Shown piece by piece: positions 31,114-36,941 of a stretch of 64,000 nt of DNA. The stretch is from a virus. Lineage: Duplodnaviria; Caudoviricetes. The notes beneath the pieces are model-generated. The model made no database searches. It was not told where the DNA came from and was given only the letters and a program-made list of their open reading frames with translations. How positions within the stretch are numbered: the first letter of the stretch is position 1; the number at the start of each line of letters is the position of its first letter. The stretch covers positions 1 through 64,000 of IMG/VR virus record IMGVR_UViG_3300032007_000037; one strand, given 5' to 3'. The translations under genes were made by a program, and so were the position numbers.

Positions 31114-31184
31114 TGGGATATAGTATAGCGGCAATACGTTGGGTTTTGGTCCCAAAGTTATAGGTTCGACTCCTGTTATCCCAA
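31114..31184 (+). tRNA. tRNA-Gln(TTG)
   Basis: Acceptor tgggata/tatccca; anticodon arm ttggg-TTTTGGT-cccaa; GGTTCGACTCC. Confidence 0.85.
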
Positions 31185-31308
31185 CTCAGTACAGTATAAC
31201 ATATCATCCATTGCGTGTGCTCATTAAAGGTATTACTATTTCGCTACTGTACTGATTATATTCATATTCTAAAAGTCCCTGCCCGCTTGTGATAAGTAGG
31301 CAGGTTAT

Positions 31309-31381
31309 CTCTGCTTAGCTCAGTTGGTAGAGCACTACACTTTTAATGTAGGAGTCGATGGTTCAAGTCCATCAGCAGAGA
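31309..31381 (+). tRNA. tRNA-Lys(TTT)
   Basis: Acceptor ctctgct/agcagag; ctaca-CTTTTAA-tgtag; GGTTCAAGTCC. Confidence 0.9.
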
Positions 31382-31387
31382 CTACAT

Positions 31388-31473
31388 CTTTCTCTAGCTC
31401 AATTGGATAGAGCGCAGCACTTATAAATAATAGTTGGATGCTGAGGTTCCAAGTTCGAATCTTGGGAGGAAGA
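31388..31473 (+). ncRNA. tRNA-like RNA (Arg-type body) with a 19-nt anticodon loop
   Basis: Normal acceptor, D and T arms; cagca-[cttataaataatagttgga]-tgctg. Confidence 0.7.
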
Positions 31474-31547
31474 CTTTAGATTGGTGAATTGCCATTGGTT
31501 AATTTATTATTGTTGTTATTGAATTATCTTACAGCGGTAAGAGGAAT

Positions 31548-32137
31548 GCCTACTTAGCTCAGCTGGTAGAGCAACAGTTTTCTATGAAAATTAAATGCTA
31601 TGGCGAGAAATCTCATAGTAGAATCTCCCTAATTCGGTGGAAGTCCTTTGTATAATATTCAGATGGGGGAAGCCCATACAGCTAATCAATAATGCTGAAG
31701 AACAATACCGAGCTAAATTGGGAAAGAAAGTAGTGGGAGCTTAAGCAACTATGGATTTTCATTATGAACTGTTAAGTTCGTAAATAATGATTATCACGCT
31801 TTTTCATAAATGCTGATTATATAGGAGATACCTAAGTTGAAATTTGTTACAAAGCAGAGATATACTGTTATATATGAGATACTATCCTCGTTAGAGAATG
31901 TTCCCTCAAAAGGTAAAATACCTGTAACATCTTGCAAGAATTTCAATATGGTAAAAATAGTCCAGACTATAAATGAATAATAGAGTGAGCTGTCACGGCT
32001 GCTATCCTGATATAAAGATAGTAACAAATGTGTAGAGACTGATTAGTTTCAGACTACTCCGGTGAATATTATTCATGCTATGGTAATACAAAGTAGTAGA
32101 AAACTGTAGGTCACAGGTTCGAGACCTGTAGTAGGTA
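31548..32137 (+). tRNA. tRNA (Thr-like body) interrupted in the anticodon loop by a ~517-nt group I intron-like insert
   Basis: 5' half gcctacttagctcagctggtagagcaacagt (31548-31578); 3' half actgtaggtcacaggttcgagacctgtagtaggta (32103-32137). Confidence 0.8.
31583..32099 (+). mobile_element. Group I intron-like RNA, no homing ORF
   Basis: P aattcggtggaa (31631), Q aataccgagc (31704), P3 atctcc/ggagat, P7 gattat (31815)/atagtc (31957), R-like gtgtagagact (32030). Confidence 0.7.
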
Positions 32138-32160
32138 CGGATGGAGAAATGAAGGAAAGA

Positions 32161-32282
32161 GATACATTAGCACAACTGGATAGTGACCCAGACCTTAAAT
32201 CACTGTTCTTAACAGGGTCTTGCATGTTGTCGACAGTAGCAAGAGGTGCTGGGAGTTACAGGTTCGAATCCTGCATGTATCT
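32161..32282 (+). ncRNA. tRNA-like RNA with a branched ~57-nt domain replacing the anticodon loop
   Basis: Acceptor gatacat/atgtatc; D loop aactggata; cccag/ctggg stem; GGTTCGAATCC. Confidence 0.7.
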
Positions 32283-32287
32283 CTGAT

Positions 32288-32368
32288 GGAGAAATGGTGG
32301 AAAGGTAGACACGTCAGATCTAAGCTCTGATACCGTAAGGTGTGTGGGTTCGAATCCCACTTTCCCCA
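32288..32368 (+). tRNA. tRNA-Leu(TAA) with atypical C33
   Basis: tcaga-TCTAAGC-tctga; long variable arm; GGTTCGAATCC. Confidence 0.75.
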
Positions 32369-32465
32369 CAAAGGAGGTATTGCATAGGAGATAAGACCAT
32401 CAAAAGCAAGTCCGCAGAGAGGGCATCCATCCGAGCCAGGTATTATGCTTACCTCCTTTTTTAAA

Positions 32466-32544
32466 ATCTGTATGGTGGAATGGAAGACACGTTAGTTTAA
32501 GAAACTAATGCTTATGCGTGCAGGTTCAAGTCCTGCTACAGACA
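32466..32544 (+). tRNA. tRNA-Leu(AAG)
   Basis: ttagt-TTAAGAA-actaa; Leu-type D arm and variable arm; GGTTCAAGTCC. Confidence 0.75.
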
Positions 32545-32654
32545 CTATTGTAGGTTATTTATGATTAGGTGATTATAATACTTTATTCATGGGACTACTA
32601 GTCAGTGATGATAGGTAGTCCTCTTTTTATTATTAACATTTAATTTTTACTGTC

Positions 32655-35306: not shown

Positions 35307-35379
35307 GCTCCCTTAGCTCAGCGAATAGAGCATCTCACTTCTAATGAGAGGGTCATTGGTTTGAATCCAATAGGGAGTA
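35307..35379 (+). tRNA. tRNA-Arg(TCT)
   Basis: Acceptor gctccct/agggagt; tctca-CTTCTAA-tgaga; T loop TTTGAAT (variant). Confidence 0.85.
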
Positions 35380-35490
35380 CAAAAGAGACTGATTCTAAAG
35401 GTTTCTGAAAGGAGATAGTCACAATAACTAGGCCAGAGTGGGTAAACCAGATTGGACTGTATGAGTGACTATCTTCTTTCTTTTTATTGA

Positions 35491-35629
35491 GGAATTGATT
35501 GGTGGAACACTGAATCAAGAGAAGTACAGTGGAACAATGGCTCAGCAATCCTGTCTCTCTAAAAGTTCTCTTGAGCTGAAGGGACTGTATAGGTCTTATA
35601 GGAGAGTTCGATTCTCTCCACTTCCACCA
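35491..35629 (+). ncRNA. tRNA-like RNA with encoded ACCA end and no anticodon loop
   Basis: ggaattg/cacttcc-ACCA; T arm gagag-ttcgatt-ctctc; tacagt/actgta stem enclosing ~53 nt. Confidence 0.55.
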
Positions 35630-35661
35630 AATAGTTATTAACTTAAATTAATCATAGTATT

Positions 35662-36450
35662 ATGCAGAAATTAAACGTATTATTAGCATTAAGAGAGAAG
35701 CTAGCTAACCGTTATGCTAACATGGTTGGTGATTACACTGCTTTCTTCAAGAACAAACAAGGTGCTTTTCGTGGTGTTTTAAGAACCCATAGCCCTCTTG
35801 AGGGATATGCTGTAGACCCAACTAAGGTATCAAATGAGAGGGTCGTTACCACTGTCAATGAAAAGATGGATTGGTGGCTTAAAGAAGCTCTTGAGTATAT
35901 CAATACAGCACTTTCCATTGAAGCCAGTAATGGTGAAGGTGCAACTACCGTACCACTGGTATTTGAAGGAAAGACTTATGGCCCTTATCCTGCTACTGTA
36001 CTTCTTCGTCTTAGAGGTATTATAGAAAGTGATAAGTTGGCTCAAATGTTGGCTCAGATTCCTGTAAGAGAGGAAACTATCATATGGAAGCCTTCTACAG
36101 ATGAGGATTATCAGAAGAGGGGTAATATCTTTGAAAATGAGCGTCAGGAAGGTGAAACCAAGACTACTGAAACTCATGAAGAGATTCTCAAAGACCCAAA
36201 TCTTGATCCTAAGGCTCTTCCTTCCAACTATAGAGCACAAGTAACTCAAATTAAGAAGACTGTTAAGACTGGTGATTATACTGTTCAGTTCTTTACAGGT
36301 GAATGGACTCATCAGCAGCGAGCAAATCTTCTTAAGCGTAGAAGTGAATTACTTGATGCCATTAATGTTGCTCTACAGACTGTTAATGACAGAGATGCAG
36401 TTGAATGTAATGTTACAGAGCTTTTCAAGCATCTGATTTATGGTAAATAG
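35662..36450 (+). CDS. Conserved hypothetical protein (262 aa) adjacent to a structured ncRNA
   Basis: Long ORF with high-expression codon usage, embedded among RNA genes. Confidence 0.85.
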   Translation: MQKLNVLLALREKLANRYANMVGDYTAFFKNKQGAFRGVLRTHSPLEGYAVDPTKVSNERVVTTVNEKMDWWLKEALEYINTALSIEASNGEGATTVPLVFEGKTYGPYPATVLLRLRGIIESDKLAQMLAQIPVREETIIWKPSTDEDYQKRGNIFENERQEGETKTTETHEEILKDPNLDPKALPSNYRAQVTQIKKTVKTGDYTVQFFTGEWTHQQRANLLKRRSELLDAINVALQTVNDRDAVECNVTELFKHLIYGK

Positions 36451-36469
36451 AAATTTAAATTAAAATAAT

Positions 36470-36745
36470 TGACCTTAGCTTTAGCCTTATATTAAGCTTT
36501 ATCAAATCCTAGATAGAAAGCATTAATGTTGTGGTCAAAAGCATTATTCAGGTTGATTACAGTATATTACCTATCTGAAGACTACACAGTATCTTGCGAT
36601 ATAGGTTCGATTCCTGTCAGCCCCTCTAATATAACATAAATATGGGGCTGTGGTGTAATGGTTAGCATGTGAGGTTTTTCTAGCTTTAAGTTAAGTGGAT
36701 AGAATGTAATATACAAATGCTTTGGAGGTCAGTATGATGGATTTG
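36470..36745 (+). ncRNA. Large structured RNA containing a circularly permuted tRNA-like domain
   Basis: T arm plus 3' acceptor cagcccc (36601-36624) precedes 5' acceptor ggggctg plus D arm (36644-36668); nested flanking stems. Confidence 0.75.
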
Positions 36746-36759
36746 TTCGCTGATCTCTA

Positions 36760-36832
36760 AGCGGGGTAGCTCAATTGGTAGAGCAATAGTCGTGAAAACT
36801 GTGTGTTGTAGGTTCGATCCCTACCCCCGCTA
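36760..36832 (+). tRNA. tRNA with Phe-like body and aberrant anticodon loop CGTGAAA
   Basis: Acceptor agcgggg/ccccgct; atagt-CGTGAAA-actgt; variable gtgtt; GGTTCGATCCC. Confidence 0.65.
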
Positions 36833-36839
36833 CTATTAA

Positions 36840-36941
36840 GGCAGAATGTGCGAATGGTATAGCAGTATTACTTTCACTCGATAGTAATATGGGATAAGAT
36901 TCTAGGAATTATCTATGGAGGTTCGAGTCCTTCTTCTGCCA
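36840..36941 (+). ncRNA. Class II (Leu-like) tRNA body with enlarged anticodon arm
   Basis: Acceptor ggcagaa/ttctgcc; tattact-[ttcactcgat]-agtaata; long variable arm. Confidence 0.65.

What the first reader, a model, noticed from the sequence alone, without database searches (positions are those of the whole stretch)
35662..36745. Candidate new protein-RNA system: 262-aa gene followed by a large RNA built around a circularly permuted tRNA
Seen: about 20 nt after the stop, a ~280-nt region carries tRNA halves in reverse order. The 3' half comes first: T arm atagg-TTCGATT-cctgt and acceptor strand cagcccc (36601-36624). After a 19-nt linker comes the 5' half: ggggctg (36644-36650) and D arm gtgt-aatggtta-gcat. 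The 'anticodon stem' gtgaggt/atcttgc has no loop and continues into nested helices ctatct/ggatag (36571/36697), gtatattac/gtaatatac (36562/36706), aaagcatt/aatgcttt (36538/36716) and tgacct/aggtca (36470/36726); caaatcc/ggatttg (36503/36739) is a possible pseudoknot. Five tandem degenerate YTTAGC hexamers lie at 36474-36503, with a related run at 36680-36696. Known: two-piece tmRNAs use this permuted layout and are matured by RNase P, 3' trimming and CCA addition. Here there is a true D stem and no G3-U70 Ala determinant, so it is not a standard tmRNA. Inference: host tRNA-processing enzymes cut it into a two-piece RNA that binds the adjacent protein via the hexamers, for example as a tRNA mimic or decoy, or as a translation/anti-defence RNP.
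Basis: partly seen in the sequence, partly recalled or inferred. Interest (0 to 1): 0.92.

Follow-up and report, generated by a model that had tools for sequence, protein, structure and literature searches.

The report
Phage tRNA-mimic RNA with DUF7873 partner
Right after a phage gene of unknown function (DUF7873) lies a conserved folded RNA of about 290 bases whose core is a tRNA with its halves in swapped order and no anticodon loop; the gene and RNA travel together in about nine in ten related phage loci, so they probably form an RNA-protein particle that I found in no paper or RNA library searched.

Summary
Window 36469-36757 is a structured RNA in the tRNA array of a complete 131-kb rumen phage. 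It contains a permuted, anticodon-less tRNA-like head, a bulged rod, a 5' hairpin made of AGCNUN hexamers and a 3' hairpin.

- **Linkage:** the RNA follows the DUF7873 gene in 73 of 81 phage or metagenome loci and 24 of 29 MAG loci, down to 36% protein identity. Lak megaphages keep both, 180 kb apart.
- **Structure:** covariation is strong (97.5% paired against 35-44% in slid controls).
- **Processing:** a two-piece RNA is likely but unproven. The head has a 7-bp acceptor stem and the same U73-C-(A/U)-A trailer as genuine tRNA genes of these phages. One RNA-library contig starts exactly at G36644.
- **Not a tmRNA:** there is no G3-U70, and the apparent tag ORF is two more hexamers.
- **Not a YrlA member:** there is no Ro60 gene, Ro60 motif or Rfam hit, although YrlA is the closest known design.
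- **Protein:** DUF7873 has no known fold and is predicted to form a homodimer.
- **Prior finds:** this scan noted the same module on other DNA in at least 24 genomes. I found no paper or Rfam family describing it.
- **Function:** tRNA mimicry as an adaptor or decoy is inference only.

The parts
35662..36450 (+). DUF7873 gene (262 aa, stop TAG), the only protein gene inside this stretch of the tRNA array
   Evidence: Pfam PF25283: E 2e-30, 106.7 bits against a cut-off of 27. 152 homologues found. AF2 model pLDDT 88 with no informative fold match. Homodimer predicted: 0.84 against best control 0.03.
36469..36538 (+). 5' hairpin domain closed by helix H1, UUGACC (36469-36474) with GGUCAA (36533-36538). 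It is filled with AGCNUN hexamers (36477-36500; 36519-36524). The apical loop holds AAAUCCUAGAU (36504-36514).
   Evidence: H1 has compensatory variants across clades: UUGACU/AGUCAA, UCGAC/GUCGA, CUGAC/GUCAG, CUGAU/AUCAG, UUGACA/UGUCAA. The hexamers are conserved family-wide.
36540..36545 (+). Hexamer AGCAUU just after H1. Relatives carry 2-3 hexamers here.
36562..36576 (+). Rod, 5' strand: GUAUAUUAC (rod-b) followed by CUAUCU (rod-a).
   Evidence: Covariation in clade A. The geometry of 7 bp, 3-nt bulge and 6 bp is fully paired in 21 of 48 relatives against 7 of 4800 shuffles.
36592..36600 (+). Anticodon-stem 3' strand UCUUG (36592-36596) and variable loop CGAU.
   Evidence: The AC stem is 5 of 5 bp in 44 of 48 relatives, with unrelated sequences.
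36601..36624 (+). T arm (AUAGG-UUCGAUU-CCUGU) and acceptor 3' strand CAGCCCC.
36625..36643 (+). Linker. It starts U73-C74-U75-A76 and ends AUAU before G1. It is the presumed excised spacer.
   Evidence: Linker length is 17 to about 230 nt in relatives, A/U-rich, with optional hairpin inserts. The trailer statistics equal those of real tRNA genes.
36644..36674 (+). Acceptor 5' strand GGGGCUG, U8-G9, D arm GUGU-AAUGGUUA-GCAU, G26, and anticodon-stem 5' strand UGAGG.
   Evidence: An RNA-library contig of run X4 starts at 36644.
36675..36696 (+). 3' internal loop with two more hexamers (AGCUUU 36682-36687, AAGUUA 36688-36693). This is the apparent mini-ORF GCU UUA AGU UAA.
36697..36714 (+). Rod, 3' strand: GGAUAG (rod-a), bulge AAU (36703-36705), GUAAUAUAC (rod-b).
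36725..36757 (+). 3' hairpin GAGGUCAG/CUGAUCUC. Its loop carries GGAUUU (36739-36744), complementary to AAAUCC of the 5' domain loop.
   Evidence: The stem covaries (GGAUUAG/CUAAUCC in relatives). The kissing pair is conserved but lacks covariation support.
36760..36833 (+). Abutting cloverleaf, called tRNA-Ser(UGA) by ARAGORN. Its loop is C-G33-UGA-AA. Its 5' processing would set the 3' end of the RNA, and it may be a second, non-decoding head.
   Evidence: It lies 110-120 nt after G1 in nearly all relatives. The same body carries changing anticodons. U33 is absent in 24 of 41, against about 7% of the other tRNAs. RNA-library contigs end at 36826-36833.

Best explanation
Window 35662-36833 is one conserved phage module. 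It consists of the DUF7873 gene plus a structured non-coding RNA of about 290 nt (36469-36757) that abuts an atypical cloverleaf.

**The RNA as shown.** It displays a complete tRNA body: acceptor stem, D arm, T arm, variable loop and a 5-bp anticodon stem. The chain enters and leaves at the anticodon side. There is no anticodon loop, and the acceptor stem is closed by a dispensable linker.

**Processing (inferred).** Host RNase P cuts before G36644. 3' trimming and the CCA-adding enzyme turn U73-C74 into UCCA. This gives a two-piece RNA held together by the acceptor stem, the anticodon stem and the bulged rod, as shown experimentally for M. smegmatis YrlA.

**Protein binding (inferred).** The hexamer-repeat hairpin and the flanking hexamers are the platform for DUF7873, which is probably a homodimer.

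**Function (inferred, least certain).** The particle uses tRNA mimicry to engage a tRNA-recognising host factor during infection, as an adaptor or decoy, in the manner of Ro60/Y-RNA particles. It does not decode or tag.
For: **Structure**
- Clade-A alignment of 11 sequences: 97.5% of cells paired against 35-44% for slid partners. 24 pairs have changes on both sides against 3-7 in controls, and 0 of 500 shuffles reach the observed values.
- RNAalifold predicts 54 pairs, 25 of them compensatory.
- Across 48 unique relatives, the D stems and 5-bp AC stems are kept with unrelated sequences.
- The rod geometry is 13 of 13 paired in 21 of 48 relatives against 7 of 4800 shuffles.
- H1 has at least five compensatory variants.

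**Linkage to DUF7873**
- The RNA lies 20-250 nt after the gene in 65 of 81 loci by a strict scan.
- Eight more are found by a relaxed scan or as truncated copies.
- 24 of 29 loci in Bacteroidales MAG contigs carry it.
- Lak-A1 keeps the gene and the RNA 180 kb apart.

**Processing**
- The acceptor stem is 7 bp.
- C74 is present in 48 of 48, C75 in only 4 of 48 and A76 in 46 of 48. In 293 genuine tRNA genes of the same loci the figures are 91%, 1% and 60%.
- N73 is U in 38 and G in 10, never A.
- The linker is unconserved, 17 to about 230 nt.
- A contig of an independent rumen RNA library starts exactly at 36644 and ends at 36833 with 2 unaligned letters.
- Published precedent: M. smegmatis YrlA is cut by RNase P and gains CA in vivo (PMC4201824).

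**Protein**
- Homodimer score 0.84 against best control 0.03. The runs agree in at least 98% of contacts and pLDDT is 91. The mark was reached by 20 of 30 solved homo-pairs and 1 of 23 single chains.
- One face of a long beta strand carries conserved T207, Q209, F211 and W215.

**Expression**
- Rumen RNA-library contigs cover the gene and 36582-36833.
Against: - No direct evidence exists that DUF7873 binds the RNA. Conserved synteny inside a phage lineage can be inherited gene order.
- DUF7873 is near-neutral (pI about 6) and has no recognisable RNA-binding fold.
- One RNA-library contig (X2, 36582-36826) bridges the linker. Unprocessed RNA or contaminating DNA therefore exists, and contigs cannot prove ends.
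- Single-sequence folding energy is not unusual (z -1.04).
- The loop-loop pairing lacks covariation.
- The biological role is pure inference.
Confidence: 0.6

Rival explanations
1. It is a YrlA-type Y RNA that works with the host's Ro60 (Rsr) rather than with DUF7873. The closed or cut tRNA-like head and a Ro60-binding stem would tether host Ro60 to an effector. DUF7873 would be merely a neighbour.
For: The domain order is the same as in YrlA: stem, T arm, acceptor, D arm, stem. M. smegmatis YrlA is also cut and CCA-tailed. Bacteroides thetaiotaomicron, of the likely host order, has a TROVE protein (control row). Clade-A relatives carry GACGACUA at the place of the GNCGAA motif. Short-linker YrlA-like elements score 27-45 bits in relative L003.
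Against: Rfam YrlA gives no hit on this RNA even at E up to 10. The window has GAAGACUA, and other clades have nothing like GNCGAA at that position. G000 has no TROVE gene. The extra hexamer domain, the strict adjacency to DUF7873 and their co-retention in Lak remain unexplained.
Confidence: 0.12
2. It is a miniature two-piece tmRNA-like rescue RNA. The head would be aminoacylated (U73 suggests Gly or Cys), enter stalled ribosomes, and have the short frame after the anticodon stem (GCU UUA AGU UAA) translated as a tag.
For: The layout is permuted and the ends are tRNA-like. Weak Rfam hits exist: cyano_tmRNA 22.7 bits and tmRNA_permuted 22.1 bits. A GCN-started frame of 3-4 codons ending in a stop is present in many relatives. 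tmRNAs with 2-aa tags and without a CDS are known (PMC11915505). U73 is shared with the Gly, Cys, Thr and some Ser tRNAs of these phages.
Against: No G3-U70 in 48 of 48 relatives. A true D stem and anticodon stem are present. The Rfam scores are far below the gathering scores of 47 and 70. The frame is simply two more AGCNUN hexamers, and it is AAAUUAAAGUGA in the L159 clade. Its stop lies in the rod helix. The phage has no SmpB. ARAGORN finds no tmRNA.
Confidence: 0.07
3. It is a cis-acting RNA element, not a trans-acting particle. It would be a structured 3' UTR or processing scaffold that controls DUF7873 expression or the maturation of the neighbouring tRNA array.
For: The RNA starts about 20 nt after the stop codon, is probably co-transcribed, and abuts a cloverleaf whose RNase P cut would release it. 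Earlier notes of this scan report hexamers over the gene's RBS in other genomes (not seen here).
Against: In Lak-A1 the RNA is 180 kb from the gene and still intact. In L156 another gene lies between them. The elaborate conserved tertiary-looking features exceed what a processing signal needs.
Confidence: 0.1
4. It is a genuine circularly permuted tRNA gene whose transcript is circularised and re-cut into a decoding tRNA, as in Cyanidioschyzon merolae.
For: The 3' half lies upstream of the 5' half, with matching acceptor strands.
Against: No anticodon-loop sequence can be assembled at the junction in any relative. There is no bulge-helix-bulge motif. The flanks are more conserved than the tRNA body. 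The phage has no RtcB.
Confidence: 0.02

Closest known systems
YrlA (Y RNA-like A, Rfam RF02553) with Ro60/Rsr, especially the Mycobacterium smegmatis form (Chen et al. 2014, PMC4201824)
   Same: It is a tRNA mimic with ends at the anticodon side, ordered T arm, acceptor, D arm. The M. smegmatis RNA has a 7-bp acceptor stem. It is cut by RNase P and gains CA after an encoded C, giving a two-piece RNA in a protein particle. YrlA also occurs in phages.
   Different: Here there is no Ro60 gene, no GNCGAA Ro60 motif and no RF02553 hit. The RNA is twice as long. It has a hexamer-repeat hairpin domain, a bulged rod, a 3' hairpin and an abutting atypical cloverleaf. Its constant neighbour is DUF7873.
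Two-piece (permuted) tmRNA of Alphaproteobacteria, Betaproteobacteria, cyanobacteria and mitochondria (Rfam RF01849-51, RF04321; PMC11915505)
   Same: The gene order is circularly permuted. tRNA-processing enzymes mature it into two base-paired pieces. Both have an acceptor-T arm minihelix.
   Different: There is no G3-U70 alanine identity, and a real D stem and anticodon stem are present. There is no credible tag frame and no SmpB in the phage. Rfam scores of 22 bits fall below the gathering scores of 47 and 70.
Circularly permuted tRNA genes of Cyanidioschyzon merolae and Thermofilum (PMC3978253, PMC3218864)
   Same: The 3' half is encoded upstream of the 5' half, with a linker joining the acceptor strands.
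   Different: Those genes restore a normal anticodon loop through a BHB splice. Here no anticodon loop exists, and the flanks form conserved extra domains.

Membership tests
DUF7873 (Pfam PF25283) | Score above the curated cut-off over the whole profile | tested here: met
   E 2e-30, 106.7 bits against a cut-off of 27; profile positions 1-235 of 244.
YrlA / bacterial Y RNA (RF02553) | tRNA-like module in the order T arm, acceptor stem, D arm, with the RNA ends on the anticodon side | tested here: met
YrlA / bacterial Y RNA (RF02553) | Ro60-binding helix with GNCGAAN0-1G in the 5' strand (PMC4201824) | tested here: not met
   The window has GAAGACUA at that place. Clade A has GACGACUA. Other clades have nothing similar.
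YrlA / bacterial Y RNA (RF02553) | Encoded next to, and bound by, Ro60/Rsr (TROVE) | tested here: not met
   No TROVE match in the complete 131-kb genome. Binding was not testable.
YrlA / bacterial Y RNA (RF02553) | Covariance-model score | tested here: not met
   No RF02553 hit on 36469-36757 at E up to 10.
YrlA, M. smegmatis type | RNase P cleavage in the acceptor loop and CA addition in vivo | not testable with these tools
   Only hints exist: the 7-bp stem, the tRNA-like trailer, and a contig that starts at 36644.
Two-piece tmRNA (RF04321, RF01851) | G3-U70 alanine identity pair | tested here: not met
   G3-C70 here, and none in 48 relatives.
Two-piece tmRNA (RF04321, RF01851) | Covariance-model gathering score | tested here: not met
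   22.1 bits against 47 and 22.7 bits against 70. ARAGORN finds no tmRNA.
Two-piece tmRNA (RF04321, RF01851) | Conserved tag reading frame with resume codon and stop | tested here: inconclusive
   A short GCN frame is present in many relatives but coincides with two hexamers and is absent in the L159 clade.
Permuted tRNA gene (C. merolae type) | The junction restores a 7-nt anticodon loop through a BHB motif | tested here: not met
   No loop can be assembled and no BHB motif is present.

The most novel reading that the evidence does not exclude
DUF7873 and this RNA form a previously unknown class of tRNA-mimic particle. A protein dimer would read a track of AGCNUN hexamers and present one or two tRNA-shaped heads. 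The permuted head, cut and CCA-tailed with a conserved U73, would be aminoacylated or otherwise handled as a real tRNA. The particle would act directly on the translation or tRNA-surveillance machinery, for example as bait for tRNA-targeting host defences or as a ribosome-directed factor.
Probability: 0.2. Interest if true: 0.9.

Novelty: new variant of a known kind. Interest (0 to 1): 0.8.

Why it matters
tRNA mimicry by non-coding RNAs is known from tmRNA, viral tRNA-like structures and Ro60-bound YrlA. What the mimic is for in YrlA remains an open question.

Here the same inside-out tRNA design is coupled to a different, uncharacterised protein and to a periodic hexamer domain. It is conserved across very divergent large phages of gut and rumen Bacteroidales. 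That gives a second, independent system in which to ask what an anticodon-less, probably CCA-tailed tRNA body does. It also assigns a first testable partner and context to a Pfam domain of unknown function.

Tried and rejected
- **Permuted group I intron.** The idea came from the R-like GAAGACUACA at 36577-36586. I found no P7 partner or S element, and the motif varies outside clade A, so I dropped it.
- **Cas7-like reading of DUF7873.** The idea came from the 6-nt periodicity. Foldseek listed several Cas7, Csm3 and uL22 chains, but at E 0.02-0.15 and TM about 0.1. None reached Z 2 in the VIA second look. Best overall Z was 6.5 in the wide search. I rejected it as unsupported.
- **Other protein searches.** BFVD, PHROGs and the ESM Atlas (scores 0.81) gave no lead.
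- **Isotype of the head.** Comparison with 293 phage tRNAs gave no consistent isotype.
- **DNA-motif scans of IMG/VR.** These returned mostly chance hits. The few true hits were contigs already found through the protein.
- **Unconstrained rod search.** It did not discriminate from shuffles. The constrained version did.
- **Single-sequence folding.** z was -1.04, not informative.
- **RNA-library coverage.** No contig covered 36470-36581, which shows nothing either way.
- **Phage-encoded helpers.** G000 has no SmpB, CCA-adding enzyme or RtcB, so any processing would use host enzymes.
- **Literature.** Searches for DUF7873, permuted tRNA-like RNAs in phages, and phage Y RNAs found no description of this module.
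Full report
**Setting.** The window is the first 64 kb of a complete 131,166-bp virus record with direct terminal repeats. Its relatives are large uncultured phages of 30-550 kb. Contigs carrying the same gene are binned mostly with rumen and gut Bacteroidales MAGs. RNA libraries that hold the stretch are bovine gut metatranscriptomes. The finding lies inside a tRNA array. ARAGORN and Rfam find tRNAs at 31114-32545, 35307-35380, 36760-36833 and 36840-36941. The 262-aa ORF at 35662-36450 is the only protein gene in this part of the array. It belongs to Pfam DUF7873 (E 2e-30).

**Observation.** These are the T arm and acceptor 3' strand (36601-36624), a 19-nt linker, the acceptor 5' strand and D arm (36644-36668), and a loop-less anticodon stem. 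One such pattern is not remarkable by chance: my scan gives 0.25 hits per shuffled strand. The single-sequence folding energy is ordinary (z -1.04). The evidence is therefore comparative.

**Recurrence.**
- I collected DUF7873 homologues (152 proteins) and their loci by exact look-up.
- I added loci from a profile scan of IMG/VR (75 loci) and of GTDB genomes (29 loci).
- A strict script looked for a 5-bp T stem, a TTCRA-type loop, and a 7-nt strand whose complement follows within 160 nt.
- It found the permuted head 150-250 nt after the gene's stop in 65 of 81 phage or metagenome loci. This includes homologues at 36-40% identity. It found it in 24 of 29 genome loci.
- A relaxed look added L137, L145, L154 and L167 (linkers up to about 230 nt, or one mismatch). 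It also added L156 (another gene inserted between), two copies cut by contig ends, and one copy with an internal deletion.
- The only clear exceptions are six Lak-like megaphage loci and two loci where another ORF follows.
- In Lak-A1 the RNA is not lost. A pattern search found an intact copy, followed by a cloverleaf, 180 kb from the DUF7873 gene. Gene and RNA are thus kept together even when unlinked.

**Anatomy.**
- Across 48 unique relatives the head is a full tRNA body. It has U8, a 3-4-bp D stem, G18G19, a 5-bp anticodon stem (5 of 5 pairs in 44 of 48), a 4-6-nt variable loop ending in C, a canonical T loop and a 7-bp acceptor stem. All stems have unrelated sequences between clades. It resembles no particular isotype.
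- Beyond the anticodon stem there is no loop. The two strands open into an internal loop and then form a rod of about 6 bp, a 3-nt A-rich bulge on the 3' strand, and 7-9 bp. In the window these are 36562-36576 with 36697-36714. Under fixed geometry the rod is fully paired in 21 of 48 relatives against 7 of 4800 shuffles.
- Upstream lies a hairpin domain closed by H1 (UUGACC 36469-36474 with GGUCAA 36533-36538). H1 shows compensatory variants in other clades: UCGAC/GUCGA, CUGAC/GUCAG, CUGAU/AUCAG, UUGACU/AGUCAA and UUGACA/UGUCAA.
- This domain is built of, and followed by, tandem hexamers AGCNUN (AGAYUN in some clades). Two more hexamers sit in the 3' internal loop.
- A 3' hairpin (36725-36757) carries GGAUUU in its loop. 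This is complementary to AAAUCC in the apical loop of the 5' domain. Both are conserved, but only one double change supports the pairing.
- On an 11-sequence clade-A alignment, RNAalifold predicts 54 pairs, 25 with compensatory changes. My structure scores 97.5% paired cells against 35-44% for slid partners. It has 24 pairs with double changes against 3-7, and 0 of 500 shuffles reach it.
UGACCU/AGGUCA competes with H1 and with the 3' hairpin, both better supported. AAAGCAUU/AAUGCUUU is complementary only in this window.

**Is it cut into two pieces?** This cannot be shown with the tools, but four independent hints point that way.
1. The acceptor stem is 7 bp. Chen et al. name this as the determinant that lets RNase P cut M. 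smegmatis YrlA but not the Salmonella or Deinococcus RNAs (PMC4201824).
2. The linker behaves like a spacer. It is 17-25 nt and A/U-rich in most relatives, with optional hairpin inserts up to about 230 nt, and only its first and last few bases are constrained.
3. The 3' trailer carries the signature of real tRNA genes in these phages.
   - In 293 unique genuine tRNA genes, position 74 is C in 91%, position 75 is C in 1% (A or U instead), and position 76 is A in 60%.
   - In the permuted heads, C74 is 48 of 48, C75 is 4 of 48 and A76 is 46 of 48.
   - M. smegmatis YrlA likewise encodes the first C and gains CA after transcription.
   - The discriminator is U (38) or G (10), never A, although A is the commonest in the real tRNAs.
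4. In an Ion Torrent rumen metatranscriptome from a different study than the other runs, the single contig on this stretch begins exactly at G36644. It ends at 36833, the end of the abutting cloverleaf, with two further unaligned letters.

Against this, another contig (36582-36826) bridges the linker, and contigs cannot establish ends. The phage encodes no CCA-adding enzyme, RtcB or SmpB, so host enzymes would do the work.

**What it is not.**
- It is not a tmRNA.
  - There is no G3-U70 in any relative, and real D and anticodon stems are present.
  - Rfam scores of 22 bits fall far below the gathering scores, and ARAGORN makes no tmRNA call.
  - The tempting frame GCU UUA AGU UAA after the anticodon stem is two more copies of the hexamer. 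It is AAAUUAAAGUGA in one clade.
- It is not a decoding permuted tRNA, because no anticodon loop can be assembled.
- It is not a member of YrlA as defined. It has no RF02553 hit, no GNCGAA motif in this window, and no TROVE gene in the complete genome.
- YrlA is nevertheless the closest known design, especially the cut and CCA-tailed M. smegmatis form.

**The protein.**
- The AlphaFold model is confident (pLDDT 88). It has three long helices, a small sheet and a very long beta hairpin whose tip carries the invariant LKDPNLDP motif.
- Foldseek against PDB and BFVD, and two VIA-align searches, gave nothing above background.
- A two-copy prediction passed its controls. The score was 0.84 against best control 0.03, with at least 98% contact agreement between runs and pLDDT 91. 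The mark was reached by 20 of 30 solved homo-pairs and 1 of 23 single chains. A symmetric dimer is therefore likely.
- The protein is not basic (pI about 6).
- That it binds the hexamer domain is inference from adjacency, co-retention and the periodic repeats.

**A further component.**
- The cloverleaf that abuts the RNA (36760-36833) sits 110-120 nt after G1 in nearly all relatives and is one orthologous body.
- Its anticodon loop changes between close relatives: CGUGAAA here, and CGCCAAA, CGCUAAA, CGUUUAA and CGGUUAA elsewhere.
- It lacks the universal U33 in 24 of 41 cases, against about 7% of the other tRNAs in the same loci.
- Its 5' processing would define the 3' end of the RNA. It may be a second, non-decoding head, which would match the two-headed forms that earlier notes of this scan report in other genomes.

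**Earlier work of this scan and the literature.** Notes from at least 24 other genomes describe the same DUF7873-plus-RNA module and reach the same comparison with YrlA. I treated them as leads and re-derived the points used here from my own loci. Full-text searches found no paper that mentions DUF7873 or describes this RNA. No Rfam 15 family matches it at a curated threshold.

**Verdict.** This is a real, deeply conserved phage non-coding RNA built around an inside-out, anticodon-less tRNA. It is genetically coupled to DUF7873, probably matured like a tRNA into two pieces, and probably forms an RNA-protein particle. It is a new variant of the YrlA and two-piece-tmRNA style of tRNA mimicry, with a new protein partner and a new hexamer domain. 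Its function is unknown. My best guess, with low confidence, is an adaptor or decoy that engages a tRNA-recognising host factor.

Noticed in passing
window 36760-36833 and the equivalent place in L003, L004, L096-L176: The cloverleaf abutting the RNA is one orthologous body. Its anticodon differs between close relatives (UGA, CCA, CUA, UUU, GUU and others), and U33 is missing in 24 of 41 copies, with G33 in 17. It may be a non-decoding second head or a fast anticodon-shifting tRNA.
   Followed up: partly
all tRNA genes of the window and of L003-L177: Genuine tRNA genes of these phages encode N73-C74, then A or U at position 75 (C in only 1%), then mostly A. This is a C-(A/U)-A trailer, not CCA and not random sequence.
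   Followed up: partly
window 35501-35630: A 130-nt tRNA-like RNA with acceptor strands GGUGGAA/UUCCACC, a good T arm, an encoded CCA-like end and a large insert. It has a weak Rfam tmRNA hit (24.7 bits) and no G3-U70. A long perfect hairpin lies just upstream at about 35407-35480.
   Followed up: partly
window 36840-36941: A 102-nt tRNA (Rfam 38 bits, missed by ARAGORN) with two hairpins between the D and T arms. The loop of the second contains UUCUAGG, so it may be a CUA (amber-reading) anticodon in an unusual context. The DUF7873 ORF itself ends in TAG. I did not test whether the phage recodes TAG.
   Followed up: no
L004 2630-3000, L096 2170-2480, L097, L099, L100 (upstream of DUF7873): Repeated hairpin RNAs of about 70 nt. 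Each has ACAGCAA after the 5' stem strand and an inner hairpin whose 7-nt loop is CUUUUAA, like a tRNA-Lys(UUU) anticodon loop.
   Followed up: no
L207 (Lak-A1, MK250015.1 about 215.9-216.2 kb, minus strand) and L001 (about 36.6 kb): In Lak megaphages the RNA and the DUF7873 gene are both intact but lie 180 kb apart.
   Followed up: partly
L003 4429-5010: Three permuted tRNA-like elements with short linkers (4-8 nt) in the same tRNA array score 27-45 bits on Rfam YrlA, below the gathering score of 69. No such element occurs in this window.
   Followed up: no
L131 2800-2960: This copy of the RNA has an internal deletion that joins the 5' hexamer domain to the linker insert and removes the T-arm half.
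   Followed up: no
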